Below are positions 23,080-50,526 of a DNA stretch of 64,000 nt, piece after piece. Source of the stretch: Rhizodiscina lignyota (lineage: Eukaryota); assembly GCA_010015805.1 (NCBI GenBank), contig ML978130.1, positions 806,001 through 870,000 of the forward strand, read 5' to 3'. The translations under genes and the position numbers were made by a program. Each line of letters starts with the position of its first letter. Positions within the stretch are counted from its first letter, which is position 1. The notes beneath the pieces were generated by a model. It did no database searches. It was not told where the DNA came from and saw only the letters and a program-made list of their open reading frames with translations.

Positions 23080-24364
23080 TTAGGAGAAGACAATGCCTCC
23101 ATCGACAATGATGCTTTGGCCAGTGATCTGGTTTGCTCTCTGGCTGGCTAAGAAGCTTACACAGTTCGCGATATCTGCTGGAGTCTGGTGAAGCTTATCA
23201 GTTGTCTACTGTTCCAATTTGCAAGGAGTACGAACCTGCGCTTTCTTGGATGCGGAACGGGCATTGACTGATTCTTCGAATGCTGTCTCCTTGGGCACAT
23301 TATTCCTCTTGGAAACTTCTGTGGCAATCTCATCCCACATCTGCGATAATGTAAGCGACTGGTTGCGACCGGGTCACAGTATCTGGACTCACATTTGTGT
23401 TGACGGGACCAGGACAGTACGCTTTGCTCTGGTTAACGTGAGGGAAGACTGAGAGCTGGGAAAGACTTGCCATTAACCTGAATTCCATACTTGGCCAGAT
23501 CCAAAGCCGCATTCTGAGTCATTCCTCTCACGGTCCATTTCGACACTGAGTACGGGAATGCGTTCCCACTCTAGATATTCGTCAGCCGAGCTCCTCGCGA
23601 ATCATGAACTGTGTATACTTACTGGCCTGTAAGCCGCAATTGATGCAGCTCCAATGATCTTTCCTCCTTTCCCTTGCTTGACCATCTGCTTGGCTGCGAG
23701 TTATGTCAGTCAAATGATCCGTAATGAGAAATGCTTTTGTTATGCTCACCTGCTTCACGGTAGCAGAGGAACGTGCCGCGAGCGTTGACCTTTTATGATC
23801 AGTCAAGACTGCTTGTTCGAGGGTGTGTGGACACCTTCTGCTCCGAAATGCTTACTGATTGGACTTTGTCGAAATCCTCGAGGGTGGTCTCAAGTAACGG
23901 TTTGACGATAATGATGCCAGCATTCGCAATAAAAATCTGAATGTGTGAGGGATGAGTGAGTACAGAGCGGGCCAGAATGTGGTATATACGGTTTAGAGTC
24001 AACATGACCTACGTTTAATTCCCCGAACTCTTTGACTGTAGAGGCTATCAAATTCTGGACATCTCCTTCCTTGCTGATATCGGCAATGATACATGTGGAC
24101 TTTCGACCTTGTTCGCGTTAAAATCCAAAGTGATCCAATCCATGCGGACGCGGCATACCTTTTGCTTCAATCTCGCCTTTGACACCTTCCAAGGGCGAAG
24201 TATTTGCTGGGATATCATTTATCTCAAAAATATTCTGTCAGTAATGGTTATTGCTTGGTTTCAACGAGGATACGAACCGCAACATCGTTTCCGTCATCAG
24301 CTAACTGTAGGGCAATTGCACGCCCGATCCCCCTGGACGCTCCTGTCACGATTGCTACTGGCAT
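23080..24364 (-). CDS. Short-chain dehydrogenase, acetoin/diacetyl reductase (meso-butanediol dehydrogenase)-like, 10 exons
   Basis: Manually spliced: MPVAIVTGASRGIGRAIALQLADDG, FIANAGI, GKIIGAASIAA, YSVSKWTVRGMTQ (YxxxK), VNAYCPGPVNT, QITGQSIIVDGG. Confidence 0.88.
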
Positions 24365-24955
24365 ACTGGGCTGTGGCTGTTACTGTTGGGTTCCTGTCTC
24401 GAGCAAGTTGACGTTTAGGTTTTCAACCATCAATGTCGCAAGAAATCTCGTGAGGAGGTCATCAAGCTCTCCCCGCTCGCCCGCCATGGCAATGTGGACG
24501 CCGCGCTTCCGCTAGTTGGCCGAGGACCCACGGATCCAACCTCGATGAAGTCATTTCATTGCTCAGAGGCATCTGTTTTGCTTTCAAGGAGGCAGCAGAG
24601 CACGTACTTGTCGTCTTCAAGTTGTGGTTGAGATTGTGACTTTCCAGACAGAGACACGAGCCACGGACGGGATTACAAGTACATATATGCACGCCACAGG
24701 GGGATCTCATGAAAATGCACGGAGAAATCTATCTTGCGGCTCTTGGATTGCTGTTTCAAAGTCCACACGTGATGCTCTTATCATGGATAAAGTCTCGGTC
24801 CAAAGAGGAAATAACCCCCGGATTCCGCATCCTTCAAAGCTATCTTTCAACAAGATCTCAACCCTAATGACATCCCATGGTTAGTGAGAATTTGATCTCA
24901 TATCGCTTTAATCACTTTTGATATTTGAAAGGTTTGAGGCCCTTGAGGTCCTGAT

Positions 24956-24997
24956 GAAGGTTGATGAAGGTACCGAAGGTTGATGAAGGTAGCGAAG
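24956..24997. repeat. 19-bp tandem duplication in a divergent promoter
   Basis: gaaggttgatgaaggtacc / gaaggttgatgaaggtagc / gaag. Confidence 0.7.
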
Positions 24998-25241
24998 CCC
25001 CATACCTCGGCGCAATTCCACTCGTTGGTGCGGGGACTTCGTTCAATGCGGCTTGAATGAGACTTTAAGGCATTGACCATAACCTATGAGATGATACGAA
25101 AGTCGCCAGAGAATGGCATCTCTGGGACTTAATACCTCATTCCCAGTCAACGGTCACATTCACCTGACCATCGATCTCTTCTCGTGCAACTGTGTATTTA
25201 GCACATACTCTGTACACAAGAAGCAGAGGATTCCATAAACA

Positions 25242-26135
25242 ATGGAAGTCGACCAGATCAAACAATTGTCATGGAGTGTCAAAACTTCGTACACTGCCTC
25301 CAGCATAATCACCTACAATATCGCTTTGGGCACTGATGGCAACGATCTGAGCCTCTGTTTCGAACGGCACCCCGATTTCCACCCACTTCCAACGTTTGGC
25401 AGCCTTCCGGTGGTAGCTGTAATGGGAGAGGTGACGAGGTCAATGCCAAAATTTCTAATCAATTTCGACCCCAGCCGACATGTTCATGGTGAGCACTTCC
25501 TGGAACTACGACGACCGTTTCCCAAGGAAGCCACGCTAGAGACTACAGCAAAGGTGCTCGACATTGTTAATCGCAGTAGTGGAGTTACTGTGTGCGTCGG
25601 CATCTGGACGAAGGATTTTGCAACAGGACATGAGATTTGCTACAATGAATGGACTTCCTTTATCATCAAAGCATCGGCGAAGGACGCCGCGACCAAGCCA
25701 ATCCCTCGAGGCGCTGCCACGGCATCTCATCCCGCGCCATCGCGAACGCCAGATGCTGTTCTCGAATACAGGACGACTCCTGAGCAGGGCGCACTGTATC
25801 GAGCAGCGTCCGGAGATCTGAATCCTCTTCACATTGACCCAGCTGTTGCAAAAGCTGGAGGATTTCCGGGGCCGATTCTGACAGGAACTTGCACAATTGG
25901 GATCGGTGTTCGGCATATTATCGAAGCATTTGCAAACGGAGACTCAAGTAAGTTTGAGAACGTAAAATTGAGACTGAGTAATGTCGTGTTTCCTGGTGAA
26001 ACTGTCAAGACGGAGATGTGGCGAGAAGATGGAGGCAGAAGGATCGTGTACAGGCAAGTCTCCGGAGAAGACAATAGGGTTGTGATTTCGCAGGCTGCTG
26101 TCGGATTGCGTGATGTTTCAAACGCACGATTATAA
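25242..26135 (+). CDS. Stand-alone (R)-specific enoyl-CoA hydratase 2 (MaoC double hot-dog), peroxisomal
   Basis: Hydratase-2 motif ALYRAASGDLNPLHIDP, VHGEHFL, VFPGET; C-terminal PTS1 -ARL. Confidence 0.88.
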   Translation: MEVDQIKQLSWSVKTSYTASSIITYNIALGTDGNDLSLCFERHPDFHPLPTFGSLPVVAVMGEVTRSMPKFLINFDPSRHVHGEHFLELRRPFPKEATLETTAKVLDIVNRSSGVTVCVGIWTKDFATGHEICYNEWTSFIIKASAKDAATKPIPRGAATASHPAPSRTPDAVLEYRTTPEQGALYRAASGDLNPLHIDPAVAKAGGFPGPILTGTCTIGIGVRHIIEAFANGDSSKFENVKLRLSNVVFPGETVKTEMWREDGGRRIVYRQVSGEDNRVVISQAAVGLRDVSNARL

Positions 26136-26234: not shown

Positions 26235-27460
26235 TCAATGAGCTGCGCCATTAGATGAGCCTCCTAGCATCTCCTTAAGCACTGAGCAAATGGCATCGCC
26301 CATCTCTTTCGTTCCAGCCTTTCCACCAATATCACTGTCATGCATCAGTACCTTTGCATTTTCCCAGAGAAGTTAGACTTACCCAGTTCTGATTTCAAGC
26401 CCACCTTTGCTCTTATCATCGATTACCTTAGCAACCGCAGCCTCGATTGCATCGGCTTCCTTATACATAACAAAAGAAAATCTAAGCATCATGGCCAATG
26501 ACAGGATTTGCGCAGCTGGGTTGACAATGCCTGCACCCGTTAGCCATAGTGAACCTCGAATCGGCCTCTTAATTTACCTTTGCCTGAAATGTCTGGCGCG
26601 CTACCATGGATAGGCTCATAAATTCCCTTAACTGGCTTGTCCTTTGCCGGAATATCGCAAAGACTTGCACTCGGTAGGACTCCAAGGGTGCCTGTAAGTC
26701 CTCCTGCCTCGTCACTGAGCAAATCACCAAAGGTGTTGTCCGTAACTATCACGCCATTAAACGCGCGTGGATTCTTGATCATAATCATTGCTAGTGAATC
26801 CGCCAATTGGTGCTTCAGCGTCAGCTGTGGGTAGTGTTTCTCAAACACCTCACTGACGACTCGTCGCCATAGCCTCCCGCTTGCTAGAACATTGGCTTTA
26901 TCGGAGCTTGTTACTTGCAATGGTGGGTCATGTTGCAACGCCAAAGCAGCAGCAATATGTGCGCATCGTTCAACCTCCGGACGCGTATATAGCCAAGTGT
27001 CTTGAGCGGAATCGTTGTCTTCAAGCTTTGGTCCGAAATAAGCTCCTCCGCAGTTCTCCCGGACGAGCATGAAGTCTACGCCTTCGACAATTTCAGTCTT
27101 GAGTGGAGAAAGGTGGGTGAGAGACTTGGAGACGAAGGTGCAAGGCCGCAGATTTGCAAATGCCGCTGTTGCCTTTCGCAGAGTGAGCAGGCCCAATTCC
27201 GGATTTGGCCAGGAATGTCCCCATTCCGGACCTCCAGCGCTGCCAAAGAAGATTGCATCGGCCCAGTCTGTCGATAGTTTCACGACTTCATCTGTGACGG
27301 ATTTGCCGTGCTTGTCTATGCTGCAGCCACCACAGAGGTCATGCTTCAGCTCGAATTTCGTGCCGGTGGCCTCTTGGACAACGTCGAGAACTCGGAGAGC
27401 CTGCTCCATGACCTCGGGGCCGACGTGGTCTCCGGGCAAGACAAGAACCTTTTTCGACAT
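26235..27460 (-). CDS. 3-isopropylmalate dehydrogenase-family enzyme (Leu2B-type paralog), 3 exons
   Basis: [61 protein letters not shown]. Confidence 0.9.
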
Positions 27461-28540: not shown

Positions 28541-29323
28541 ATGGCAGGACTCCTCCGGAACAAGTTTGTGGCTATCACGGGAAGCTCATCAGGGATTGGT
28601 CGAGCCACAGCAATTGCTTGTGCTAAGCAAGGTGGAAATCTGTTATTGCATCATCTTGGTGATTCCCGCGCAAAAGAGGACATTGCCACACTCCAGAAAG
28701 AATTAAAATCTATCGATCCGAAATTGGAATATGTCGACCACGGAGGCGATCTCACTCAACTTGGCGTCTCGGAAGCGCTGGTCAAGAAGGCAAAGGACTC
28801 ATTCGGAACGCTTGATGTCTTAGTCAACAACGCTGGCATCTGCAAGTTTGACGACTTCCATGCAGTTACCCGGGAGACTATGGATAGGCATCTTGCTGTA
28901 AACACCATTTCACCATTCTTCTTAACGCAGGCGGCTACGAGGTTGATGAAGGAGGGCGGACATGGTGGGAGCGTCGTCAACATCGCATCCATAACAGCGA
29001 CACAGGGCTCCTCCCAATTAACTCATTACGCTGCAACGAAGGCGGCTATCTTGGGCTTCACTTTCTCGGCCGCCGTGGCTTTGGGTCCAGATGGAATCAG
29101 GTTCAACAGCGTCTGTCCGGGGACGACCGAGACCAGCATGAACAAGGATGATCTAGACAAGGACGACAAGAGAACGAAGATGGCACTAGCAGTACCACTC
29201 CGACGGCTTGGAAAGCCAGAAGATATTGCTGGAGCGGTGGTTTTCTTTGCTAGCGACTTAGCCGCTTATGTCTCTGGCCAGTCGCTTATCGTTGACGGTG
29301 GCGCTAGCATCAACTATCAGTGA
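28541..29323 (+). CDS. SDR sugar 1-dehydrogenase, L-rhamnose-1-dehydrogenase (LRA1)-like, intronless
   Basis: MAGLLRNKFVAITGSSSGIG, NNAGIC, THYAATKA (YxxxK), PGTTETSMNKDDL, C-terminal VDGGASINYQ resemble fungal LRA1. Confidence 0.8.
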   Translation: MAGLLRNKFVAITGSSSGIGRATAIACAKQGGNLLLHHLGDSRAKEDIATLQKELKSIDPKLEYVDHGGDLTQLGVSEALVKKAKDSFGTLDVLVNNAGICKFDDFHAVTRETMDRHLAVNTISPFFLTQAATRLMKEGGHGGSVVNIASITATQGSSQLTHYAATKAAILGFTFSAAVALGPDGIRFNSVCPGTTETSMNKDDLDKDDKRTKMALAVPLRRLGKPEDIAGAVVFFASDLAAYVSGQSLIVDGGASINYQ

Positions 29324-29917: not shown

Positions 29918-31678
29918 ATGGCCCCACGATTGGAAGGAGGATGGCTGACCGTCGGAATCACATTCACTTGTGGTATGGCCTTCATGTTGTTTGGATATGA
30001 TCAAGTAAGGCTCTATATATTCCAACTGCACCAGAAGTGGCCAAGTAAGCTAATTTAAGATCTAGGGAGTATTTGGCGGTCTGCTCAGCAACAAGCTGTT
30101 TCTGAGGACCTTCGGTAACCCTGATGCAACTATCCAAGGCCAAATCGTCTCGACGTACGACATTGGCTGTGTAAGTTATCTAAGATCCATGAGCGTTGCG
30201 GCGGTGATTTTACTTTCTCTAACGTTGCGTAGATAATTGGTGCGCTATCTTCCATTTTCGTGGCAGACAAACTCGGCAGGCGAAGGTCAATTCAACTGGG
30301 TAAGTTTGGATTTGTTGATGTTCCATTAGGACGTGTCCTAACCTTTCACTAGGCTGTTGCTTCGTTGTAGTCGGCGGATTGCTTCAGGCTACCGCATTCG
30401 GCCTCCCTCAGATGATTATCGGCCGTATCGTTGCAGGCTGCGGCACCGGTTTCAACACGACAGCTGTTCCAATCTACCAATCTGAAACCAGCAAACCCAC
30501 TGAAAGAGGCAAACTGATCGTACTTCAGCTCGTCCTCGTGCTATTCGGCATTGTGATCACGAATTGGATGAATTTCGGCTTCACCTGGGTCCCCAACAAC
30601 GATGTGAGCTGGAGGTTTCCACTGGCATTCCAGGATTTCTTTGCCATCGTCACCATCTTCCTTCTTTACATCATGCCCGAATCGCCAAGATGGCTCTGCC
30701 TTAAAGATCGCCATGAAGAAGCGCGAGTGGTTATATCAAAGCTCCTTGCCAAGCCTGTCGACGATTCCGAGGTCAACGAATCCCTTGAGTTGATGATCGA
30801 TAGCATCAGCCGCGAGCGATCAATGGCAAAGGTCGGCCTCCGCGAGATTTTCTCGAATGGCAGACATCAGACCTTCCGCCGCATTGCGCTAGGTGCTGGC
30901 ACGTCTTTCATGCAGCAAATCGGCGGCACAAATGTCATAGTGTACTACTTGCCGGTCCTTCTGGTTGATTCATTTGGTTTCAGCCAACGCTTAGCCCTGA
31001 TCCTCTCCGCTGTCGACTCAATCTCACTCATGATCTGGGGCTCGGTAGCATCTTTACTTATCGATCGCGTCGGTCGCAGAAAGCTTATGCTTTTCGGAGC
31101 CTTCGGTAACGCCATTTTCTTTGCCATTGCTGCGGCAGGCCTTAGCCAAGACACTAGAGGATGGAACGCGGTTGCAGTGACCGCAATTTTCCTTTACTAT
31201 GTCACCTACGTAAGTCTTCAAGATCGATAACCCCTGAAAATATAACACTGATCAGAATTAGGGTCTCTCCTTCCTGAGCATTCCATTTATGTACCCATCA
31301 GAGATCAACTCCCAACGCATGCGCAACACTGGGTCCGCCATTGCCATGATCACCAATTGGTTGTTCGTGTACGTTGTCGTCCTGATTACGCCGACCGGCG
31401 TCCAGAACATAGGCTGGAAGTTCTACATCATCTTTGCGGTCATCAATTTCTCGTTCCTCCCCTTGATCTGGTACTACTACATTGAAACAGCCAACATGAG
31501 TCTGGAAGAGATTGACCGCATGTTTGAGATCAAGTATGATGCCGGGAAGGAAATGACGTACAAGCAGGCTGCGAAGCGTGCCAGGGAAGAAGTCGAAGTG
31601 ACGAGACTGCAGATTGCTGAAGGCCAGAAGGCAAAGGATGGAGTGACGTATACGATCAGTCACACAGAGAAGGCATAA
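29918..31678 (+). CDS. MFS sugar porter (STL1-like polyol/sugar:H+ symporter), multi-exon
   Basis: LFGYDQG, DKLGRR, GRIVAG, PIYQSE, WRFP, PESPRWL, QQIGGTNVIVYY, DRVGRR, YPSEI, IET motifs. Confidence 0.92.
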
Positions 31679-33756: not shown

Positions 33757-34317
33757 ATGCCTGAAATTACACACAATCGCGTATTCAACCATGTTGCCGT
33801 TTCTGTAACTGACGTGGATGCCACTGTCGCGTGGTACTCGAAGGTGATCCATGCCATCTCATAACTGAAAGAAAAGAAATACTGATAGAAATAGGTGTTT
33901 GGCTTCAAGTTACTTGGGAAAATTACACACATTAAGCGTTCTGAGGCACCTGATGGCGCGATCTTTAGCATCTACCCGGAGAATCTCAATGAGGTGAAGC
34001 TCGCATACATGGCGACGGGCAACGGCGTCGGTTTCGAGATCTTTGAGTTTATCGATCCAAAACCAGAGCCGCAAGAGAGTTTTGCGTACCACAAGACTGG
34101 ATTCTTTCATGTATGCGTCACAGATCCAGATCCTGATGCGTTGGCGGACAAGGTTGTGGCGGAAGGTGGGAAGAGAATAGGGGTCACTGTGAACCCTGCG
34201 GCGAAGACAGCGGCTGGTCAGCCTGTGAAGTGTCTCTATACTGCAGATCCTTGGGGGCATGTTGTAGAGATTTTGGATGTCTCGTTTGAGTGGCTGGGGT
34301 GTAGGACTGCCTACTAA
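33757..34317 (+). CDS. VOC-superfamily (glyoxalase/bleomycin-resistance/dioxygenase) protein, 2 exons
   Basis: FNHVAVSVTDVD...WYSKVFGF, GFEIFEF, GFFHVCV, DPWGHVVEI; His/Glu/His/Glu metal-ligand pattern. Confidence 0.88.
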
Positions 34318-40661: not shown

Positions 40662-41777
40662 TTAATCTGACGTTATTATGCATTTCACCAAATCCGCCGG
40701 CTTCGCTAATACCAACTTCAACGCGTCTGCTGCCTTCTCCAGGTCATACGTATGCGTGACGAGCTGCTTCAAGTCCAATCTACCCGATTTTACCATTTCG
40801 ATGGCCGTGTCAAAGGTATTCGTGTATCTCCATAGTCCCAATAGGTCGATCTCTCGTACTCCAGCGCCTCCAATGTTGATATTTTGCACTGGTGTACCTA
40901 GTCCGACCAGTACCACCTTTCCTCCGGATGCGCAGACCTCGATGCAGGTGTTGACGCACGTGTCAATGCCGGTACAATCGAAAACCACATTTGCTCGATC
41001 AAATCCTGGATGTTGTAGTATCTCTTGTCCTATGCGAGCCGCAAAGTCAGGTTTGGACTCTCCTTCCTGTCCTTTCAATGGCATAGTGAAAATGTGGTCC
41101 GCCATCCCTTTCTTTTTGGCAAATTCAAGCCTTGACTGGTCAATATCAATCATTCCGATCTTCGAGGCGCCCGAAAACTTGGCTATGCTCGCACATAGCA
41201 AGCCAACTGCACCAGCACCGACAATAATTACCGACTGGCCAGCTCTTAACCCACTCCTTCGGATCGCATGTATCGCAACACTGGTTGGCTCGATCATCGC
41301 ACCCTCGATATACGACATATCCTCCGGCATCAGGTACACAGAATCCGCTGGTCGATTATAGATTTGTTGTAAACTGCCCCCGATGGGCGGAAATATGCTC
41401 GCGGACCCGATAAACTTCAACTTCGTACATAAATTATACGTTCCCTCTTTGCAGTGATTGCATTTCCGACACGCAACCTGTGGCTCCACGACTACTCTAT
41501 CGCCGACTTTGATACTCGTCACATCGGAGCCGACAGCAACCACGTCGCCGCAGGCTTCATGTCCAAGTATGAGCGGGTGGCCAGAGAGAATAGGATATGG
41601 TCCATTTTTGCCGTTTTGGTAGTAGTGCATATCTGAGCCACAAATACCTGATGCACGCGGGCGGATTTGGACTTCATCAGGTGCAGGTAAAGCTGTAGGG
41701 ACATCCTCAAGGCGGAGATCCTGTGCACTGTAGAGAAGCGCCGCTCTGTGGGTCTTGGAGGAACCGTTGGCCGCCAT
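40662..41777 (-). CDS. Zinc-dependent MDR polyol dehydrogenase (sorbitol/xylitol/L-arabinitol dehydrogenase family), intronless
   Basis: GICGSDMHYY, LGHEACG, structural-Zn CRKCNHC...NLC, GAGAVG, IDID (NAD preference), WRYTNTF. Confidence 0.9.
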   Translation of the reverse strand: MAANGSSKTHRAALLYSAQDLRLEDVPTALPAPDEVQIRPRASGICGSDMHYYQNGKNGPYPILSGHPLILGHEACGDVVAVGSDVTSIKVGDRVVVEPQVACRKCNHCKEGTYNLCTKLKFIGSASIFPPIGGSLQQIYNRPADSVYLMPEDMSYIEGAMIEPTSVAIHAIRRSGLRAGQSVIIVGAGAVGLLCASIAKFSGASKIGMIDIDQSRLEFAKKKGMADHIFTMPLKGQEGESKPDFAARIGQEILQHPGFDRANVVFDCTGIDTCVNTCIEVCASGGKVVLVGLGTPVQNINIGGAGVREIDLLGLWRYTNTFDTAIEMVKSGRLDLKQLVTHTYDLEKAADALKLVLAKPADLVKCIITSD

Positions 41778-42304: not shown

Positions 42305-44067
42305 TCATGATGCGATCGCAGACCCAAAGTGACGAAGATGCTCGATGAGAGGCTTCAGCGTGCCAGCCTGACGCAGAACAAATACTTCTCCCAAGATACC
42401 CAGAGTGAGCGTTCCTGCTGCATATTTCCATGCCGGGTGCATTGGGTGCTTGCCCTTGCCACCAGAGGTGTTGAAGTCCTTCCAGACCGGCCAGTAGAGT
42501 TGCCACCTTTTTGGCGTTAGCATCTTGAAATTGTTGCATTTGATAGGGAGTGACTTACCAGAATAACCATGTGTTATCTGGAGAGTTTGTCGTGTTGCGT
42601 CCGCTTTCATCCAAGTTCCAGTTGCTGCAACCCGCACTCCACACCATATCCTTGAGGCGCGACTGCACGTCATTCGCATAACGAGTCTCGGCCGCCTCTT
42701 TGACATCAATCACCTTGAAGTCATTCTTCAGGATTGGCTTGATCATCGCCTTGATGATGTATTCTACCTGCACTTCGTGTGTGTAAATCACAGAGTTGTC
42801 TGTGAACTGTCAGATTAAACCCGTATTCAGCCAGAGAAGTGGAATACTTACGTGCTGGGAAAGCATTGGGGCCAAAGACGATTCCAAAGTTGGGGAAACC
42901 AGTAACGAATGTCGCGTTGTAAGCTTGAGCTCCTCTGGTGTTCTTCCAGTGCTCGTTGATCGTGATGCCACCCTTGCCCTTGACGACTATCGGGCACAAA
43001 AAGTCCTGGATCTTGAAGCCTGTACTGAGGACAATAGCATCGACATCGATCTCGCGCTTGTTGGTCTTGATACCCGTCTCGGTAAAGCATTGAATCGGCT
43101 CTGTGGTCAGCTCAATGTTGGGGCTGTGGAGACACTCAAGGTAGCCAGGGTCAAAGAGGCGTCGTTTGCAGCCAAGCGGAAACTTCGGGATGAGTATGTC
43201 GTGATACTTCTCCGGCGCTGTCGTTTTCATGTACCAGATGGCGTGCTCGGTAACTTCTCCGCGGTCCCGGACAGACCTTGCACTTTCGGAGGAGTAGAGG
43301 TGGTGGAGCGCATCGGTGTTCTTCCAAAGGTAAAACCGGTAGATCCTATTCCACAGAGGGACATATCTGAAGCACCACTTTTGAAAGGCACTAAACTCGC
43401 TGTTTGGCCGCTCATGAATCCACTGTGGACTCCTTTGGAACTGATAGACCTGCTTCGCTTGCTTCACGATTTCGGGGACCAGTTGAGCTGCTGAACAGCC
43501 ATTCCCAACAACAGCAATGCGCTTGTCTTTCAGGTTGTAGTTGTGGTTCCATCTAGCAGAATGCCAAATTTCTCCCTTGAAGTCTTTCCAGCCCGGAATA
43601 TCGCAGTCTTTGGGTATTGAAATCGTGCCGACGCAAGAGACAAGCATCTCCGCCTCTTTGAAGTACTTGTGTCCGGTCTCAAGGTCATGGAGACCTACAC
43701 GCCACACGCCCTTACCTTCGACCCATGTGGCATCGACAACTTCAGTACCCAGTCGCACATGGGATCGGATACCAAATTTGTCGACGGTGCCATTCAGGTA
43801 CTTGAGAATCTCAGCTTGCTCCGCGAACCGTTTTGACCAATCAGGGTTGAGATTGAAGGAAAAGGAATACAGATGCGAATCAACATCGCACCCAACGCCT
43901 GGATACGTATTAAGGTACCACGTTCCTCCCAATGACTTCTCTCGTTCGTAAATCGTGAAGTTATGGTATCCAACACGTGTCTTGAGGTTCGCTGCAAGTG
44001 CAATGCCCCCGACGCCACAGCCAATGACTATGAGACGGGGTTCGTCGCGCGTGGGAGGAGGCGCCAT
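42305..44067 (-). CDS. Baeyer-Villiger (class B flavoprotein) monooxygenase, 3 exons
   Basis: GCGVGG, GGTWYLNTYPGVGCD, fingerprint FKGEIWHSARW, GNGCSA, LGCKR, STGF. Confidence 0.9.
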
Positions 44068-44762: not shown

Positions 44763-46847
44763 ATGAACGGCCACCTCGAAACCAACCCCGCGACGAAGCA
44801 GCAGTTTACCGACGATGAGCAGGCTGTTCGAGATATTCGAAAGTTGGTGATTGACTGCTGTCGTCAAAATGGAGCAGGTCACGGAGGCTCTGCCATTGGC
44901 ATGGCTCCGCTTGGTGTTGCGTTATGGAAACACATCATGAGGTACAACCCGAAGAATGGTGATTGGTTCGATCGCGATAGATTCGTACTGTCAAATGGAC
45001 ATGCTGCAATCTTCCTATATACGATGCTCCACATGGCAGGATACCCTGATATGAAGCTTGACGAGCTGAAGATGTATGCGGATCCAAAGAATGTGGACCC
45101 AGAGACTGGCAAATGGAAACACACTATATGCCATGGTCATCCAGAGATCGATGTGTCCGGTGTTGAGGTCACGACTGGCCCATTAGGGCAGGGCGTTGCA
45201 AACTCGGTTGGTTTGGCAATAGCTGCGAAGTCTCTTGCTACAAAATTCAACAAGGACGGGCACGATATCATTAGCTCCCGCATATACTGTGTCACCGGCG
45301 ACGGCTGTCTCCAGGAAGGTGTTGCCAACGAGGCTGTTGCCATTGCTGGCCACTTGCAGCTCGACAACCTCATTCTTCTTTACGACAACAACCAAGTGAC
45401 TTGCGATGGCCCAGCTGACTGGATTGTGTCTGAGGACACCAATGCAAAGTTCAGATCAATGGGCTGGCACGTCATTGATGTGTTTGACGGCGATACCTCT
45501 GTGGACAATATAGTCGGCGCTGTCAACATTGCCAAAGCCGTAACAGGCAAGCCCACATTGATCAACATTAGAACGACAATAGGATACGGCACCTCCACCG
45601 CTGGCACGGCCAAATCACACCACGGCACTTACTCTTCTGAAGATGCCGTTCTCTATGCTGAAGATGTCAGCAAATCTGAAGCACATGTTGTCTCTTCCAG
45701 GACCAAGGCACTATTCGCAACGAAGGCCAAGCAGGGTGAGAAGCTCGAGCAAGAGTGGAATGCCAAACTGGAAAGCTACACGAAGGCATTCCCTGAACAA
45801 GGCAAGGTGCTCCTGGGTCGTATAGAGGGCAAGATTGAGTACGAAGACCTTCTAAAGACTTTTGAGATGCCCAAGGACCTCATGCCTACCCGAACATTCA
45901 ATGGCAAGCTTTTCAAAAACCTTGTCGCAAGCATTCCGAGCGTTATGGCCGGCGGTGCAGATCTCTGGGGCGCGAATCAACTCGGAGATTATTCACACAC
46001 AATTTTTGACGGGAAGCATAGAGATGGACAGGTCATACGCTATGGCATTCGGGAGCACGCCATGGCTGCCATCTCAAACGGCCTTGCAGCATACTCTCCG
46101 GGAACTTTCTTGCCCATCACTGCGACATTCTTCATGTTCTACCTCTACGCCGCACCGGGAGTCCGCATGGGGGCACTGCAAAATCTGAAAGTCATCCACA
46201 TCGCTACACACGACACACTTGGCGAAGGTCAGAATGGTCCGACGCATCAACCAGTAGAAGTCGACTCACTGTATCGCGCAATGCCCAATTTGCTCCACAT
46301 CCGAGCTGCAGATCCCGAGGAAGTTGTTGGAGCGTGGCAGACTGCTCTGTCTGTCAAGGGCAAGTCGATTATCATTGGTCTTGCCAGAGATCCTCCCAAG
46401 GTTGCGATACCCAACAGTGACAGGAACAAGGTCGCAAAGGGAGGCTACGTCGTTGTTGAGAAGGAGAATGCACAAGTCACCCTCATTTCCACTGGATCAG
46501 AGCTCCAATTTGCAGTCGTAGCTGCAGAGAAGCTCAGCGCTGAGGGTATCGTGACCAGAGTCGTAAGCATGCCCTGCATAAAGCTCTTCGACGAACAAAG
46601 CGAGGAGTATCAAGACTCTGTGCTGTCGGAGACTCCACACATCATCTCTCTTGAGGCATATGTGTCGACCATCTGGGCTCGATACTGCACTGCCTCGATC
46701 GGAATGACAACTTTCGGATACTCTGGATCAGGCAATGCGAACTTTGCGAGGTTTGGTCTTGACGATAACGGCGTGTTCAAGAAGGTTAAGGCGCATGTGC
46801 AGAAGACTGGGAAGGGTACGAAGCAGAAGCGCTGGGTCCAGCTGTGA
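44763..46847 (+). CDS. Transketolase of the dihydroxyacetone synthase (formaldehyde transketolase)-like branch, intronless
   Basis: DRDRFVLSNGH, GHPE, EVTTGPLGQG, ThDP motif GDGCLQEG...YDNN, YGIREHAM, TFFMFYLYAAP, GQNGPTHQPVE. Confidence 0.9.
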   Translation: MNGHLETNPATKQQFTDDEQAVRDIRKLVIDCCRQNGAGHGGSAIGMAPLGVALWKHIMRYNPKNGDWFDRDRFVLSNGHAAIFLYTMLHMAGYPDMKLDELKMYADPKNVDPETGKWKHTICHGHPEIDVSGVEVTTGPLGQGVANSVGLAIAAKSLATKFNKDGHDIISSRIYCVTGDGCLQEGVANEAVAIAGHLQLDNLILLYDNNQVTCDGPADWIVSEDTNAKFRSMGWHVIDVFDGDTSVDNIVGAVNIAKAVTGKPTLINIRTTIGYGTSTAGTAKSHHGTYSSEDAVLYAEDVSKSEAHVVSSRTKALFATKAKQGEKLEQEWNAKLESYTKAFPEQGKVLLGRIEGKIEYEDLLKTFEMPKDLMPTRTFNGKLFKNLVASIPSVMAGGADLWGANQLGDYSHTIFDGKHRDGQVIRYGIREHAMAAISNGLAAYSPGTFLPITATFFMFYLYAAPGVRMGALQNLKVIHIATHDTLGEGQNGPTHQPVEVDSLYRAMPNLLHIRAADPEEVVGAWQTALSVKGKSIIIGLARDPPKVAIPNSDRNKVAKGGYVVVEKENAQVTLISTGSELQFAVVAAEKLSAEGIVTRVVSMPCIKLFDEQSEEYQDSVLSETPHIISLEAYVSTIWARYCTASIGMTTFGYSGSGNANFARFGLDDNGVFKKVKAHVQKTGKGTKQKRWVQL

Positions 46848-48824
46848 AAGCGATGCTGGACATCTATTCAAAATGATGGCCACGACTATGCATTCCACTT
46901 TATGGAGTTGGTTACTATTGCTGCTGGGCTTTCAGGAACGAAGAACCAAGTGTTCGCTAAAGGTCGCTCTCTGATATTTAACTCGATTTGCTGATATCTT
47001 CGGAATGCATATAATCACGGACGGCTTGTATGACAAAATTTTGCAAAAACTCTATACACTTAGACCGATTGAACGATTCAAATGAACACAAGTTCCCTGA
47101 AGTAAACTTTCATACTAAGCATCCCCGGCTTTACCCCCTTTAATGCCACTCCTGAAGGCCGCGAGGCCGAAAGCCCGGCCATGCAGCCTATCTGCTCTTG
47201 GACTCTGCTCTCTCGCCTCCGACATCTGGTCCGGGCGAATGCAGAATGGTAAGAGTCGTATGACATTGGTAGATGAGACCGAACTAAGAGCGTCCAGAGA
47301 AATGACAAACCATGCGGACACGGCTCCCGGAGTGGTTTGCCAGAGGTCTGCTTTCAATTTGAAGGATTCGGCAACGGCAAGACCGTAATGATCTACAAAG
47401 GTTCTCAAAGTCCTAGGCACTCGCGGCACTCTGTATTGCTCGTCCAGGAGTCCGGTTATGCTGCTGCTTCGTCGAAGGATCCTTAATCGGGTGGCTGCGC
47501 ATTTCAAATGTTCATTAGTATGGACTCAGTGGAAAAGTCTGGATTTCACTGGCCTGCTCAAGCACACGGCTTGCTCAACTCGAGCGCATCGTAACTCCTG
47601 AGGCATGTTCTGACCAGGCTGCAATCATTGGATAGACGCATGATCAGAGTGGAGACCATTTTGCCGCACCACATCACATCGCTTGGACCACTCCTGACAA
47701 GGTTGTTCTGATAGGTCAATTGGGTTGCAGTGGTACCTCTTGCATGCCTAGAGGATGATAATTATTTGCAATTGGCCGGATCGCAGACGACTCTGGGCAG
47801 ATCGAGGTCACGCCAGAATCTGTGGCCCTCCCAAATCCTACCAGACGCGCATCTCATTGAATCTAGCCTCTATCAACATGACAGAGAGCTAAATAAACCT
47901 TCAAGCGAATAGATGAACCTGTAAGAATGGATACTCGGCTTTACGTGGAGTGCGGGCTGCAGATGTCCACTGTGGACTGACTAAGTCAGACTATGGTGAA
48001 CGACTCAGAAAATGGAGAGAATGATTTGCAAAGGAGATAACATTGGAGAGCGTATAGCCGATGAATTGTATTGAGAAATATGCCCACTCATAAATCCAGC
48101 ATCAACGTGGACGGCGAACAACAGGCGTCGCTATTAATGGCGAAATCGAGACTTAGTTTGAAATGGAGAGGCACAGGATCCAGGATGACTTCGCACGAAG
48201 CCTCTAGGCCATGCATAAGCTCTCGGACAATATTCTGCGCCGTAACTATGAGCTGCATCTCCGCTGTGAAGCGAACGAAGCGTCGCGTCTTAGAGAGAGA
48301 ACGAGAGAGACGATGAACGTCATGAACCACGCGACCGCACATGACTCGGAGGATAGTTGCCGTCCAATAATCCAAGGCAGCTCAGCCGCGGACTTTAATC
48401 TCTTCCGAGTCAGATGCGGCAGCGCTATGACCAGGATGCATTCTTCCCCAACCTGCGTTCATTCCACCCTCCTGGGCCTCCACTCTTTTCCCCAGAATCC
48501 ACTCACTTAGCCTCTGAATCGTCTCGTCCTAAGGATTCGGGTCACATAGCCGCGCTAAAACTGCATACAGCCGCGTGAAATCATGCCAAACTGCCTCAAG
48601 AAACTGGCTTCGAGCAGGAGCGGTTATGTGGAACCGCTTACGCGACGGTGCGGTCTCTTGATAAAAACGTGCAAATACTTTCTATATTTCTTTGGTTTCA
48701 AGATCTTCTTTTGTTTTCGTATCCGGCCGTCTGGCTATAGATCTCATTTGCTGCTTTCACGCATTTTGTGCATAGAAGAAGCATTTACTCCACGGCCCAC
48801 GGCTCCACGGTAACGCAGATCATT

Positions 48825-50526
48825 ATGGGGAAAGGAGATGCTTGGTTCAAGGCCGGACGGCCTACGCAGTTGGCCATCACCTACACGTGCCTCTCAGCAT
48901 TCGTACTGTTAGTCTTCTCAACGAGCAATGTCACAACATGGTAACTGATATGTATTCAGGTTTGGATGGGATCAGGGCGTCTTCGGTGGTCTTGTCACAA
49001 ACCCCGATTTCCTTGATATCGTCAAACATCCTGACCCAGGCTTTCTGGGAATCATTGTCTCGATTTACAACATCGGATGCTTCTTAGGATGTGCCATGAA
49101 CTTCTACGTTGGCAAGAGATTCGGGCGACGAGAGGCAATCGGAATTGCCATGGCCTTCATTTCAGTCGGCGGGCTAATCCAATGTTCCACGTACTCTGTA
49201 AGTCTAATCGTTCACTGATCACGACGAGAGATCTGATTCTAACATGTTTCAAAAGACAGCACAACTCATGGTTGGCCGTATCATCACCGGATTCGGCGTC
49301 GGAATCGACACGTCCACGGTACCCATGTACCAGGCAGAACTTTGCAAGCGTGAACACCGTGGCCGTCTTGTCACCACAGAAGTCCTCTTCACCGCACTGG
49401 GAGTCTCAGGCGCGTACTTCTTCGACTTTGGTCTCAGCTTTGTCGACGGCCCAGTTGCCTGGCGCCTGCCAATCGCTCTACAGATTCCAATGGCTTTCAG
49501 CGTCGCCGCGCTAGTGTACGGACTACCAGAGACGCCTCGTTATCTCGTTCAGAAAGGGCGGATTGACGAGGCTGTGGCTGTCATGTCCAAAGTTTGGAAT
49601 GCACCAGCGGATGATCCGTACATCGTGGCTGAGAAGGAGGACATCATCAAAGCTATCCACCTCGAAGAGGTCGCCCCCTTCAAGTGGCGAACCATCTTCA
49701 AGCGCGACCCCATGCAGACAGGCTGGCGTGTCTTCTTGGCTTGTCTCGTGCTCTTCATGAACCAATGGGCCGGGATCAACGTCATCGTGTTTTATGCCGC
49801 CACCGTCCTTGAGGGTATCGGTCTATCGCGCAATGCGTCCATTGTCGCCGGCGGCTGCCTCAACTTGGCATTTGCCGTAGGTTCGCTCGTACCTGCACTT
49901 GGCGCAGACAAGCTCGGCCGTAGGAAGCCGATGATGTTTGGCGCATTCGGAATGGGTGTGAGCATGATGATGGTTGCTATTCTACTGAGCTTCCAAGGCA
50001 AGAAAGTCGGTCACGCAACGAGCGAGGCGAGCATTGCGTTCTTGATCACGTACATGATCTGCTTTGGAGCCAGCTTGAACGCCATTCCGTGGTGCTACTC
50101 CACGGAGATCCTGCCTCTAAAGATCCGTGCACAGGGCACAGCGCTCGCGGTGTTCAACAACTGGATCTGGGTGTTCCTGATCGTCATGGTCACGCCAACA
50201 ATGGTTGCAAACATCGGATGGAAGACGTACCTTGTGTTCATGGCATTCGTAAGACACCTTCCTCATACTTCCCCGGGCCTTCACATCTGACTTTTTTACA
50301 GAACTTCTCTTTCGTACCAGCAATCTACTTCCTGTTCCCCGAGACAAAAGGTCTCTCGCTTGAGGAGATCGATTACATCTTCCTGAAGGGCGACGAGTTG
50401 CCGGCAGAAGAGCGCCAGTTCTACCAAAACAGCGTCTCAGGACAGGGCGCTGGTGCTGGCGCCTCGCCGGAAACCGACAGCCAAGAGGTCGAGAAGTCGG
50501 CGACACAGGTGGAGAAGGTAGCGTGA
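48825..50526 (+). CDS. MFS sugar porter, 4 exons
   Basis: FGWDQG, FGRR, GRIITG, VPMYQAE, WRLP, PETPRYL, NQWAGINVIVFY, DKLGRR, FPETKG. Confidence 0.92.

What the first reader, a model, noticed from the sequence alone, without database searches (positions are those of the whole stretch)
23080..50526. Candidate undescribed kinase-free catabolic cluster for a rare sugar, polyol or diol, with its own Zn2Cys6 regulator
Seen: 14 consecutive genes, none recognisably housekeeping, lie between conserved blocks (APM1 side and RTT109/MRPL15). They comprise six sugar/polyol/diol oxidoreductases (3 SDR, 2 MDR, 1 AKR), two sugar porters, a DAS-like transketolase, a LeuB paralog, a VOC protein, a BVMO, a hydratase-2 and a central Zn2Cys6 TF. 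Eight of them form four divergent pairs. No kinase, phosphosugar isomerase, aldonate dehydratase, aldolase, PKS or NRPS is present. Established: fungi convert aldoses to ketoses through AKR plus MDR/SDR steps, and the known clusters carry enzymes missing here (LRA: lactonase/dehydratase/aldolase; erythritol: kinase/isomerases; GAL: kinase). Inference: this is an uptake, redox and ThDP-cleavage pathway that matches none of those, though it may be two or three adjacent sub-clusters.
Basis: partly seen in the sequence, partly recalled or inferred. Interest (0 to 1): 0.78.

Follow-up and report, generated by a model that had tools for sequence, protein, structure and literature searches.

The report
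Conserved fungal dehydrogenase, oxygenase, transketolase cluster
Inside this stretch of metabolic genes sits a compact group of a regulator, alcohol dehydrogenases, a ketone-splitting oxygenase and an unusual transketolase that stays together in many distantly related moulds, and it probably forms an undescribed route for breaking down small diols or sugar alcohols.

Summary
All 14 genes of the stated families lie at 23083-50526, four pairs are divergent, and no kinase, aldolase, dehydratase, PKS or NRPS domain was detected.

I found no evidence that the 14 genes form one pathway. The right-hand part (36.3-46.8 kb) is a conserved cluster: a Zn2Cys6 factor, a butanediol-dehydrogenase-like MDR, a sorbitol-dehydrogenase-like MDR, a type I Baeyer-Villiger monooxygenase (BVMO) and a DAS-like transketolase (TK).

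Orthologues of the SDH-like MDR, BVMO, TK and regulator share contigs, some only 3.5-7 kb long. They also carry adjacent locus tags in Dothideomycetes, Eurotiomycetes, Sordariomycetes and Leotiomycetes. The other nine genes, including both porters and the AKR, could not be tested for co-conservation.

Best mechanism, inferred only: NAD-dependent MDRs oxidise a vicinal diol or polyol to an alpha-hydroxyketone. The BVMO cleaves it to an acid plus an aldehyde (formaldehyde from a terminal ketol). The TK then fixes the aldehyde onto xylulose-5-phosphate-derived carbon.

My paper searches found no description of this gene combination. No RNA data were available.

The parts
36308..38326 (-). Zn2Cys6 transcription factor (core cluster)
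   Evidence: Zn_clus and Fungal_trans domains. It has full-length orthologues at 40-59% identity. Of 20 looked-up representatives, 8 share a contig or nearby locus tags with TK, BVMO or MDR11 orthologues.
38741..39944 (+). MDR10, a butanediol-dehydrogenase-like Zn-dehydrogenase, divergent from the TF (core by position)
   Evidence: ADH_N and ADH_zinc_N domains. Best PDB match is (R,R)-butanediol dehydrogenase 6ie0 at 180 bits. The model has one intron at 38830-38884. An acidic residue ends beta-2 ('IVTEV'), which suggests NAD. Co-conservation was not tested directly.
40662..41777 (-). MDR11, a sorbitol/xylitol-dehydrogenase-like Zn-dehydrogenase (core cluster)
   Evidence: Best PDB matches are ketose reductase 1e3j at 264 bits, then SDH, LAD and XDH. 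Of 76 orthologue-range hits, 27 share a contig with BVMO and/or TK orthologues. 'MIDID' at the end of beta-2 suggests NAD.
42305..44067 (-). Type I Baeyer-Villiger monooxygenase, three exons (core cluster)
   Evidence: The annotated 552-aa protein P0123 maps to 44067-42853, 42797-42558 and 42505-42308. Best PDB matches are PAMO at 194 bits and CHMO. The motifs GGTWYLNTYPGVGCD and FKGEIWHSARW are present.
44763..46847 (+). DAS-like transketolase, intronless, 694 aa, divergent from the BVMO (core cluster)
   Evidence: Three TK domains. The exact protein is in NCBI. Orthologues at 60-70% identity are named dihydroxyacetone synthase(-like) by their sources.
46848..48824 (.). 2-kb interval without a recognisable gene, upstream of the second porter
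   Evidence: No Pfam hit at E 0.5 or better that means anything. The longest ORF, 47118-47525(-), has no credible Atlas relative (score 0.79).
48825..50526 (+). Sugar porter 2 (membership untested)
   Evidence: Sugar_tr domain. The 512-aa model has three introns.
34559..35752 (+). Aldo-keto reductase (membership untested)
   Evidence: Aldo_ket_red on two exons. The NCBIfam hit is DkgA-like at 121 bits, below cut-off. The best PDB hits are prostaglandin F synthase, D-arabinose dehydrogenase and aldose/xylose reductases. The N-terminal exon is uncertain.
33757..34317 (+). VOC / glyoxalase-I-like protein (membership untested)
   Evidence: Weak Glyoxalase hit. TIGR03645 lactoylglutathione-lyase family gives 88 bits, below cut-off. 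No PDB relative by sequence.
32332..33352 (+). SDR 3 (membership untested)
   Evidence: adh_short on three exons. A 286-aa model was built.
29918..31678 (+). Sugar porter 1 (membership untested)
   Evidence: Sugar_tr domain. The 5' exons of the model are uncertain.
28541..29323 (+). SDR 2, related to L-rhamnose 1-dehydrogenase (membership untested)
   Evidence: The exact protein is in NCBI. NF053807 RhamDHLra1 gives 262 bits against a cut-off of 400. PDB 7b81 gives 222 bits.
26235..27460 (-). LeuB-type 3-isopropylmalate dehydrogenase (possibly housekeeping)
   Evidence: Iso_dh domain. TIGR00169 gives 350 bits on the main exon. All 22 listed PDB hits are IPMDH.
25242..26135 (+). Stand-alone hydratase-2 (MaoC), ending in -ARL
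   Evidence: MFE-2_hydrat-2_N and MaoC_dehydratas domains. The exact protein is in NCBI. The C-terminus is read.
23083..24364 (-). SDR 1, highly intron-split
   Evidence: adh_short fragments lie on five short ORFs of the minus strand. The exon pieces are read. A full model was not resolved.

Best explanation
The 27-kb stretch is an island of accessory metabolic genes, not one demonstrated 14-gene pathway. Its right-hand part (36308-46847) is a conserved gene cluster. It runs Zn2Cys6 regulator, butanediol-dehydrogenase-like MDR, sorbitol-dehydrogenase-like MDR, type I Baeyer-Villiger monooxygenase, DAS-like transketolase.

Proposed working (inferred, not shown):
1. The regulator switches on the four enzymes.
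2. The two NAD-type MDRs oxidise a small vicinal diol or polyol to an alpha-hydroxyketone. Candidates are 1,2-propanediol to acetol, 2,3-butanediol to acetoin, or a sugar alcohol to a 2-ketose.
3. The BVMO inserts oxygen next to the carbonyl. The resulting acyloxy-hemiacetal falls apart without an esterase into a carboxylic acid and an aldehyde, which is formaldehyde when the ketol is terminal.
4. The transketolase keeps the phosphate-binding residues for a sugar-phosphate donor but has lost the acidic pair that reads the acceptor's 2-hydroxyl. It transfers a C2 unit from xylulose 5-phosphate to that aldehyde and yields glyceraldehyde 3-phosphate plus a ketose (dihydroxyacetone from formaldehyde).

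This would explain why no kinase and no esterase are needed.
For: SHOWN.
(1) Domain content and order.
(2) Co-location in other fungi. Of 80 BVMO hits in the orthologue range (55-76% identity), 15 lie on a contig of exactly the same length as a TK orthologue, including contigs of 7220 and 11671 bases.
(3) Of 76 MDR11 orthologue-range hits (47-66% identity), 27 share a contig with a BVMO (18) and/or TK (15) orthologue. These include contigs of 3505, 4278, 4816, 5200, 6167, 6356 and 6785 bases.
(4) Adjacent locus tags:
- Neodothiora populina: TK _004434, BVMO _004437, MDR _004438.
- Colletotrichum tropicale: MDR _010462, TK _010464.
- Fusarium vanettenii: TK _94736, MDR _94738.
- Recurvomyces mirabilis: BVMO _006926, MDR _006927.
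(5) Regulator. Of 20 looked-up representatives, 8 are linked:
- Aureobasidium subglaciale: TF E4T39_07665 against TK E4T39_07661, four genes apart as in the window.
- A second strain: TF _08405 against TK _08410.
- Aspergillus nanangensis: TF _009435 against BVMO _009431.
- Scytalidium lignicola: TF g1443 against TK-like g1439.
(6) The linked taxa span four classes (Aspergillus as Eurotiomycetes and Fusarium, Colletotrichum and Clonostachys as Sordariomycetes are from knowledge).
(7) The BVMO carries both type I fingerprints and matches PAMO and CHMO.
(8) The TK keeps the equivalents of yeast His30, His69, His103, His263, Arg359, Glu418, His469, His481 and Arg528, but has Gln-Asn where yeast has Glu476-Asp477. 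EGQNGPTHQ occurs in 110 of the 112 family members in which the motif region was found, out of 120 examined.

INFERRED.
- Substrate class, from the best PDB relatives of the MDRs.
- Precedent for oxygenative cleavage of acetol to acetate plus formaldehyde (Hartmans and de Bont 1986, seen only as cited in the introduction and reference list of PMC9300024).
- The role of Asp477 in reading the acceptor's 2-hydroxyl is recalled from the transketolase literature and comes from no call.
Against: - No biochemical or expression data exist. No RNA run could be found.
- The regiochemistry of the BVMO step and any release of formaldehyde are speculation.
- The sorbitol-dehydrogenase-type MDR points to sugar alcohols more than to C3-C4 diols.
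- The transketolase could equally work in the cleaving direction.
- MDR10 is placed in the core only by position: it sits between TF and MDR11. The same four-gene spacing occurs in Aureobasidium and Scytalidium, and a 6023-base contig holds both a TF and an MDR11 orthologue.
- Linkage is not universal:
  - Elsinoe batatas: MDR-like KVT40_000127 against TK KVT40_000296, 169 tags apart.
  - Penicillium salamii: MDR on contig 208951 against TK on 288207.
  - Aspergillus crustosus: BVMO on 90843 against TK and MDR on 544098.
  - A. nanangensis: TK on 198367 against BVMO and TF on 198869.
  - Dipodascopsis tothii: BVMO on 488116 against MDR on 442786.
  - Lipomyces doorenjongii: MDR on 3757 against TK on 33844.
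  - Knufia peltigerae: TF-like on 423859 against BVMO on 145347.
- Most of the remaining hits sit on contigs too short, or in species absent from the top-120 lists, so they are uninformative.
- No shared promoter word stands out above chance.
- The TK C-terminus (-VQL) is not a canonical peroxisomal signal, unlike what is recalled for yeast DAS.
Confidence: 0.4

Rival explanations
1. Ketose-cleavage reading. An MDR oxidises a polyol to a free 2-ketose. The transketolase uses that unphosphorylated ketose as donor and passes its C1-C2 unit to a sugar-phosphate acceptor, so carbon enters the pentose-phosphate pathway without a kinase. The BVMO and the second MDR then deal with the leftover aldehyde or with a side substrate.
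For: MDR11 is closest to ketose reductase and to sorbitol, xylitol and L-arabinitol dehydrogenases. The TK keeps the phosphate-binding Arg and His residues, which could serve the acceptor as well as the donor. No kinase is present in the island. Two sugar porters lie nearby.
Against: It gives no necessary role to the BVMO, which is as tightly linked as the TK. The family-wide loss of the Glu-Asp pair argues against normal recognition of hydroxylated sugar substrates; that interpretation is recalled and comes from no call. The porters were not shown to be co-conserved.
Confidence: 0.2
2. One reading: all 14 genes from 23080 to 50526 form one regulon and one pathway for a rare sugar, polyol or diol.
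For: All 14 genes are metabolic or transport genes and are contiguous. Six of the 13 CGG-N10-CCG sites of the window fall in upstream regions of the island.
Against: Co-conservation was found only for the right-hand genes. The LeuB-type gene looks like an ordinary IPMDH, and the hydratase-2 ends in a PTS1-like -ARL, typical of fatty-acid beta-oxidation (the PTS1 reading is from knowledge). The CGG-N10-CCG count for the whole window is at chance level (13 against 10.55 expected), and the spacing was picked after looking at 13 spacings. In Aureobasidium, Scytalidium and A. nanangensis the TF lies only 4-5 genes from the TK or BVMO, which fits a five-gene unit.
Confidence: 0.1
3. Cyclitol route. 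An MDR oxidises an inositol-type cyclitol to an inosose (a substituted cyclohexanone). The BVMO expands and opens the ring to a uronic-acid-type product, which is the same net result as myo-inositol oxygenase. The later steps use the other dehydrogenase.
For: Both MDRs have scyllo-inosose 3-dehydrogenase IolM among their best NCBIfam matches (179 and 192 bits, far below the cut-off of 450). The BVMO matches cyclohexanone monooxygenases. Earlier notes on this genome call it wood-dwelling.
Against: The IolM scores are generic for the polyol-dehydrogenase family. The route gives no role to the transketolase. No uronate-pathway enzyme was identified in the core.
Confidence: 0.07
4. No shared pathway: the genes are neighbours through shared chromatin or ancestry only, and each works in a separate process.
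For: No expression data exist. No shared promoter motif was found. Linkage is broken in several species.
Against: Linkage of four unrelated gene families across four classes of Pezizomycotina, with changing order and orientation (Neodothiora against the window) and a patchy shared distribution, is hard to keep without selection.
Confidence: 0.05

Closest known systems
Dihydroxyacetone synthase (formaldehyde transketolase, EC 2.2.1.3) of methylotrophic yeasts, xylulose-monophosphate pathway
   Same: It has the same three-domain ThDP fold. Sources name the orthologues dihydroxyacetone synthase(-like). Donor-phosphate and cofactor residues are kept. The proposed job is the same: capture of a short aldehyde with xylulose 5-phosphate.
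   Different: The host is not known as a methylotroph. No alcohol oxidase or dihydroxyacetone kinase lies nearby. The C-terminus is -VQL, not a canonical PTS1. The gene sits with a BVMO and polyol-type dehydrogenases. Orthology to the yeast enzymes was not tested. In Aspergillus the DAS-like genes (TktC) are only assigned by annotation (PMC6231085 and PMC9781776, passages read).
Bacterial oxygen-dependent acetone/acetol routes: acetone BVMO AcmA with esterase AcmB of Gordonia, and acetol monooxygenase of Mycobacterium Py1
   Same: A flavin monooxygenase cleaves a small (hydroxy)ketone into an acid plus a C1 unit. The Py1 enzyme gives acetate plus formaldehyde from acetol (as cited in PMC9300024, passages read; pathway overview in PMC8630023, passages read).
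   Different: These are bacterial. They have no transketolase partner and no polyol-type MDRs, and AcmA needs an esterase. No sequence relation beyond the BVMO family was tested.
Known fungal sugar and polyol catabolic clusters (L-rhamnose LRA, erythritol EYK/EYD/EYI, GAL)
   Same: They are clustered catabolic genes with a Zn2Cys6-type regulator, a transporter nearby and dehydrogenase first steps.
   Different: Their defining enzymes (lactonase, dehydratase and aldolase; kinase and isomerases; galactokinase) are absent here. None of them contains a BVMO or a transketolase; the composition of these clusters is from knowledge.
AlcR-family regulator, esterase and BVMO trio noted elsewhere in this genome (earlier finding e1-7578695)
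   Same: It is a second small conserved fungal unit built around a BVMO and a regulator, and is also read as ketone breakdown.
   Different: It has a different regulator family, includes an esterase, and has no transketolase and no MDRs. I did not check it.

Membership tests
Transketolase superfamily, DAS-like fungal clade | Three TK domains (ThDP-binding N, pyrimidine-binding, C-terminal) | tested here: met
   PF00456 at 356 bits, PF02779 at 125 bits and PF22613 at 116 bits. PDB transketolases score 355-475 bits over the full length.
Transketolase superfamily, DAS-like fungal clade | Cofactor and catalytic residues and phosphate-binding residues of yeast TKL1 (His30, His69, His103, His263, Arg359, Glu418, His469, His481, Arg528) | tested here: met
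   All are aligned to identical residues in the HMMER alignment to 1gpu (positions counted by hand). The residue list is recalled from the TK literature.
Canonical pentose-phosphate transketolase (EC 2.2.1.1) | Glu476-Asp477 pair (G-E-D-G-P-T-H-Q) that reads the sugar hydroxyl | tested here: not met
   The window protein has G-Q-N-G-P-T-H-Q. Of the 112 family members with the motif region, 110 have Q-N. TIGR00232 gives 629 bits, below its cut-off of 682.
Dihydroxyacetone synthase (EC 2.2.1.3) | Formaldehyde-dependent activity; orthology to the enzymes of methylotrophic yeasts; peroxisomal targeting | not testable with these tools
   Only source names support it. The C-terminus -VQL is not a canonical PTS1. 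No yeast DAS sequence was at hand for comparison.
Type I Baeyer-Villiger monooxygenase | Fingerprint FxGxxxHxxxW, motif GGxWxxxxYPGxxxD and two dinucleotide-binding motifs | tested here: met
   FKGEIWHSARW, GGTWYLNTYPGVGCD, GCGVGG and GNGCSA are read in P0123 (the motif definitions are recalled). The best PDB relatives are PAMO, CHMO, OTEMO and steroid monooxygenase at 165-194 bits, against FMOs at 44-51 bits.
Polyol-dehydrogenase branch of the MDR superfamily (SDH, XDH, LAD) | Zn-ADH fold with best similarity to polyol dehydrogenases | tested here: met
   For MDR11: 1e3j at 264 bits, sheep and human SDH at 237 and 233 bits, LAD at 222 bits and XDH at 208 bits.
Fungal XDH or LAD orthologue | Orthologue-level identity to proteins named as these enzymes | tested here: not met
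   The MDR11 orthologue group (47-66% identity) is followed by a drop to 45% or less, where the proteins named L-arabinitol 4-dehydrogenase and sorbitol dehydrogenase begin. The names are those of the sources.
(R,R)-2,3-butanediol dehydrogenase (MDR type) | Closest characterised relative and substrate | tested here: inconclusive
   For MDR10 the best PDB match is 6ie0 at 180 bits, ahead of ketose reductase at 144 bits. No equivalog cut-off was reached.
Fungal catabolic gene cluster with a pathway-specific Zn2Cys6 regulator | Physical linkage of regulator and enzymes conserved across species | tested here: met
   Of 20 TF representatives, 8 are linked. Of 76 MDR11 hits, 27 are linked. Of 80 BVMO hits, 15 are linked to a TK.
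Fungal catabolic gene cluster with a pathway-specific Zn2Cys6 regulator | Co-regulation and regulator binding sites in the promoters | tested here: inconclusive
   No RNA holder was listed. No k-mer is shared by the three core promoters above chance. CGG-N10-CCG is at chance level window-wide.
L-rhamnose (LRA) cluster | LRA1 dehydrogenase plus lactonase, dehydratase and aldolase | tested here: not met
   SDR 28541-29323 scores 262 bits on the Lra1 model against a cut-off of 400. No lactonase, dehydratase or aldolase family was found in the island.

The most novel reading that the evidence does not exclude
Non-methylotrophic moulds use their puzzling DAS-like transketolases as the last step of an ATP-free, esterase-free oxidative C-C cleavage route. 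A dehydrogenase makes an alpha-hydroxyketone from a diol or polyol. A Baeyer-Villiger monooxygenase turns it into a self-cleaving acyloxy-hemiacetal. The released formaldehyde (or other short aldehyde) is assimilated on the spot by the transketolase. All of this runs under one dedicated Zn2Cys6 regulator. It would be a new catabolic logic, and it would give these widespread but unstudied genes their natural role.
Probability: 0.25. Interest if true: 0.8.

Novelty: new variant of a known kind. Interest (0 to 1): 0.6.

Why it matters
DAS-like transketolase genes are common in filamentous fungi that are not known to grow on methanol, and metabolic models only assign them a reaction by annotation (PMC6231085, PMC9781776, passages read). 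Fungal type I BVMOs are widely mined as biocatalysts, but very few have a known natural substrate (this from knowledge). A conserved unit that ties one BVMO clade to one DAS-like clade, two dehydrogenases and a dedicated regulator makes both questions testable. The regulator gives a genetic handle, the four enzymes are soluble and easy to express, and the candidate substrates are cheap. If the aldehyde-capture idea holds, it would be a kinase-free entry of diol or polyol carbon into central metabolism, and a natural BVMO-transketolase cascade of interest for biocatalysis.

Tried and rejected
- Whole-genome search: no genome is held for this window.
- Metagenome synteny scan with a TK alignment: the patterns chosen were generic.
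- Scan of prokaryotic genomes with the BVMO: no relative found.
- Scan for the GQNGPTHQ-coding motif in prokaryotic genomes: nine loci. The one I annotated (Bradyrhizobium, L081) has a TK at 36% identity in an operon-like group with a TRAP transporter, ALDH, GMC oxidoreductase, a glycerate-kinase-like gene and Iso_dh, but no BVMO. It is no analogue of the fungal cluster.
- In L082 the motif match falls in no listed ORF of 150 aa or more, and in L087 it falls inside an 1128-aa ORF of unchecked family. The other six loci were not examined.
- RNA evidence: no RNA holder listed.
- Earlier notes of this scan: nothing on this region or on relatives.
- Promoter motifs: CGG/CCG pairs at spacings 0-12, CGG-N10-CCG window-wide and k-mers shared by the core promoters. 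Nothing stood above chance.
- Atlas look-up of the longest ORF in the 2-kb gap: no credible relative.
- Literature: 'Baeyer-Villiger monooxygenase' with 'dihydroxyacetone synthase' gave 0 papers. 'Dihydroxyacetone synthase' with 'monooxygenase' and 'sorbitol dehydrogenase' gave 0 papers. 'Baeyer-Villiger' with 'transketolase', 'gene cluster' and 'fung' gave 3 papers that look unrelated from their titles and abstract openings. One badly designed search was useless, and one on TK acceptor mutants gave nothing I used.
- Considered and dropped: tartrate or D-malate dehydrogenase for the LeuB-type gene (leuB model 350 bits against tartrate dehydrogenase 135 bits); an FMO or trimethylamine monooxygenase reading of the BVMO (57 bits against 160-194 bits for BVMOs).

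Full report
**What is there.**
The window has about 50% G+C and intron-split genes, as in a filamentous ascomycete. No whole genome is held for it.

I translated every stop-to-stop ORF of 65 aa or more between 22.5 and 51.2 kb (193 ORFs) and scanned them against Pfam. I did the same for 149 shorter ORFs (38 aa or more) in the stretches that stayed empty.
- SDR 23083-24364(-)
- stand-alone hydratase-2 25242-26135(+)
- LeuB-type dehydrogenase 26235-27460(-)
- SDR 28541-29323(+)
- sugar porter 29918-31678(+)
- SDR 32332-33352(+)
- VOC protein 33757-34317(+)
- aldo-keto reductase 34559-35752(+)
- Zn2Cys6 factor 36308-38326(-)
- MDR 38741-39944(+)
- MDR 40662-41777(-)
- flavin monooxygenase 42305-44067(-)
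- transketolase 44763-46847(+)
- sugar porter 48825-50526(+)

Gene limits come from my own splice-site scripts and from mapping two annotated proteins back to the DNA. The 5' ends of the AKR and of the first porter, and the full model of the first SDR, remain uncertain.

Four pairs are divergent. No kinase, isomerase, dehydratase, aldolase, PKS or NRPS family was seen. The flanks are as stated: an AP-complex mu subunit at 18.0-19.2 kb, RTT109 at 50.9-52.5 kb and an MRPL15-like ORF at 52.7-53.2 kb.

**Caveats on 'none housekeeping'.**
The LeuB-type gene scores 350 bits on the leuB equivalog with only its 306-aa main exon, against a cut-off of 353. The tartrate-dehydrogenase model gives 135 bits. 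All 22 listed PDB relatives are 3-isopropylmalate dehydrogenases. It may simply be a leucine-biosynthesis gene, but I cannot count copies without the genome.

The hydratase-2 ends in -ARL, a peroxisomal-type ending (from knowledge), as expected for a beta-oxidation enzyme.

**Whose DNA.**
Three intronless products are in NCBI as singletons at 90% identity, on a 1,336,433-base contig. In one search the source names the window's own monooxygenase as a protein of Rhizodiscina lignyota. This is a member of the Dothideomycetes, order Aulographales.

No fungal genome collection with context was open to me, and my one metagenome scan was wasted on generic patterns. I therefore used the large protein searches, which list for every hit the length of its contig and often a locus tag. 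Two proteins on contigs of exactly the same length, from the same source, are taken to lie on the same contig.

The transketolase has a clear orthologue group at 60-70% identity, then a second group at 52-54%. The monooxygenase has a group at 55-76%, then about 50%. The second MDR (MDR11) has a group at 47-66%, then 45% or less.

*BVMO against TK.* Of 80 monooxygenase hits in the orthologue range, 15 lie on the same contig as a transketolase orthologue:
- unnamed contigs of 7220, 11671, 34916, 36040, 51033, 53721, 64470 and 79671 bases
- Paraphaeosphaeria sporulosa (33301)
- Aspergillus lucknowensis, Clonostachys solani, Elsinoe fawcettii, Pleurostoma richardsiae, A. pseudotamarii and Neodothiora populina

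*MDR11 against BVMO and TK.* Of 76 MDR11 hits in range, 27 share a contig with a monooxygenase orthologue (18), a transketolase orthologue (15) or both (6). They include contigs of only 3505, 4278, 4816, 5200, 6167, 6356 and 6785 bases, where the genes must be direct neighbours.

*Locus tags.* They show adjacency in these species:
- Neodothiora: TK 004434, BVMO 004437, MDR 004438
- Colletotrichum tropicale: MDR 010462, TK 010464
- Fusarium vanettenii: TK 94736, MDR 94738
- Recurvomyces mirabilis: BVMO 006926, MDR 006927

**The regulator.**
A search of 1.84 billion representatives found 304 relatives at E 1e-30 or better, the best being full-length at 40-59% identity. I looked up 20 of them. 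Eight are linked to the enzymes:
- Aureobasidium subglaciale: TF E4T39_07665 against TK E4T39_07661, both on contig 154478. That is four genes apart, exactly the spacing TK-BVMO-MDR11-MDR10-TF of the window.
- A second strain: TF 08405 against TK 08410.
- Aspergillus nanangensis: TF 009435 against BVMO 009431.
- Scytalidium lignicola: TF g1443 against a TK of the 53% group, g1439.
- Contig 53721 holds TF, TK and BVMO.
- Contig 59860 holds TF and BVMO.
- Contig 6023 holds TF and MDR11. The window's TF-to-MDR11 span is 5.5 kb, so this leaves room for one gene between them.
- Paramyrothecium foliicola (507297) and Aspergillus insuetus (301015).

One case is unlinked (Knufia peltigerae). Eleven give no information.

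**Cases against linkage.**
- Elsinoe batatas: same contig but 169 tags apart
- Penicillium salamii
- the A. crustosus BVMO
- the A. nanangensis TK
- Dipodascopsis tothii
- Lipomyces doorenjongii

The linked taxa cover Dothideomycetes, Eurotiomycetes, Sordariomycetes and Leotiomycetes (and general knowledge).

My conclusion is that TF, MDR11, BVMO and TK form a conserved cluster. MDR10 belongs to it by position and spacing only.

**What the core enzymes are.**

*Monooxygenase.* It is a type I Baeyer-Villiger enzyme. PAMO, CHMO, OTEMO and steroid monooxygenase score 165-194 bits, against 44-51 bits for FMOs. Both BVMO fingerprints are present (motif definitions recalled).

*MDR11.* It is nearest to ketose reductase (264 bits) and to sorbitol, L-arabinitol and xylitol dehydrogenases. 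It is not an orthologue of the proteins that sources name as those enzymes (45% or less).

*MDR10.* It is nearest to (R,R)-butanediol dehydrogenase (180 bits).

Both MDRs have an acidic residue at the end of the second strand of the nucleotide fold. This usually means NAD and hence an oxidative role (from knowledge).

*Transketolase.* It aligns over its full length with yeast TKL1. It keeps the catalytic histidines, the cofactor glutamate and the three phosphate-binding residues, but has Gln-Asn in place of Glu476-Asp477 (counted by hand). This Q-N pair is a family hallmark: 110 of the 112 members in which the motif region was found, out of 120 examined. As I recall the transketolase literature, that aspartate reads the 2-hydroxyl of the aldose acceptor, and replacing it opens the enzyme to non-hydroxylated aldehydes. 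This point rests on memory, not on a call.

**How it most likely works.**
The enzymes suggest this order: alcohol, then ketone, then oxygen insertion, then an aldehyde that a transketolase can take.

If the ketone is an alpha-hydroxyketone, the Baeyer-Villiger product is an ester of a hemiacetal. It falls apart by itself into an acid and an aldehyde. That would explain the missing esterase.

A terminal ketol such as acetol would give acetate and formaldehyde. This is the reaction reported for the acetol monooxygenase of Mycobacterium Py1, which I saw only as cited in PMC9300024. The bacterial acetone and acetol routes are summarised in PMC8630023.

A DAS-type transketolase next door would then remove the toxic aldehyde and bring its carbon into triose phosphate with xylulose 5-phosphate as donor. 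That would explain the missing kinase.

I give the cluster itself about 0.9 and this mechanism about 0.3. The combined statement gets 0.4, because a looser version (a diol or polyol oxidised, cleaved by the BVMO, with an aldehyde handled by the TK) is more likely than the formaldehyde detail.

Rival readings are:
- ketose cleavage by the transketolase (0.2)
- a cyclitol ring-opening route (0.07)
- mere neighbourhood (0.05)

**What did not help.**
- No RNA run is listed.
- No promoter word is shared above chance.
- Prokaryotic genomes hold no close BVMO relative.
- The only bacterial transketolase context that I annotated with the Q-N motif lacks a BVMO.
- Earlier notes of this scan do not cover the region.

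**Novelty.**
Searches for BVMO together with dihydroxyacetone synthase gave nothing relevant: 0 papers, 0, and 3 that look unrelated from their titles and abstract openings. In Aspergillus the DAS-like genes are only given a reaction by annotation (PMC6231085 and PMC9781776, passages read).

The library holds open-access papers and preprints only, so a description in a subscription journal cannot be excluded.

I rate the finding as a new variant of a known kind: a fungal catabolic gene cluster of new composition, with function unproven.

Noticed in passing
window 23083-24364 (-): The first SDR is cut into about ten short exons within 1.3 kb, far more than its neighbours. Its exon pieces read like an acetoin reductase / 2,3-butanediol dehydrogenase of the SDR type; that resemblance is recalled and was not tested.
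   Followed up: partly
window 46848-48824: A 2-kb interval between the transketolase and the second porter has no recognisable gene. It holds 6 CGG/CCG pairs at spacings of 9-10 bases between 48335 and 48650. It may be a long regulatory region or an unrecognised gene.
   Followed up: partly
window 29422, 33622, 38459, 44527, 48347, 48621: Six of the window's 13 CGG-N10-CCG sites lie in upstream regions of island genes. The window-wide count is at chance (13 against 10.55 expected), and the spacing was chosen after the fact. This is a weak lead for the regulator's site.
   Followed up: partly
window 21660-22832 (-): A 391-aa open frame without a Pfam hit resembles Ascomycota DUF7730 proteins by language-model features (score 0.97). 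It lies between the APM1-like gene and the first SDR, so the accessory island may start further left than 23080.
   Followed up: partly
L081 7564-9612 (+) and neighbours (Bradyrhizobium jicamae contig): A bacterial transketolase (36% identical) shares the fungal family's 'CHGHPE' and 'GQNGPTHQP' motifs. It sits among a LysR regulator, a 3-hydroxyacid-dehydrogenase-like gene, a hydrolase, a TRAP transporter, a HAD hydrolase, an aldehyde dehydrogenase, a GMC oxidoreductase, a glycerate-kinase-like gene and an Iso_dh gene. Four more Bradyrhizobium loci carry the motif.
   Followed up: partly
P0121 / P0373 (Scytalidium lignicola, locus tags g1439 and g1443): A transketolase of the second, 52-54% identity DAS-like group also lies four genes from an orthologue of the regulator. 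Both DAS-like groups may therefore sit in related clusters.
   Followed up: no
window 53725-54867 (-), 55370-56956 (-), 60170-60928 (+): Beyond RTT109 and the MRPL15-like ORF lie further accessory-type genes: an NmrA-like protein, an FAD-binding aromatic-hydroxylase-like monooxygenase and another SDR.
   Followed up: no
window 6864-9908 (+), 58039-59343 (+), 61195-63162 (-): Three long open frames (1015, 435 and 656 aa) have no Pfam family at E 1e-5 or better.
   Followed up: no
window 1799-4249 (-): An 817-aa frame combines C2H2 zinc fingers with the fungal-specific transcription-factor domain. It lies next to a D-2-hydroxyacid dehydrogenase gene (571-1752).
   Followed up: no
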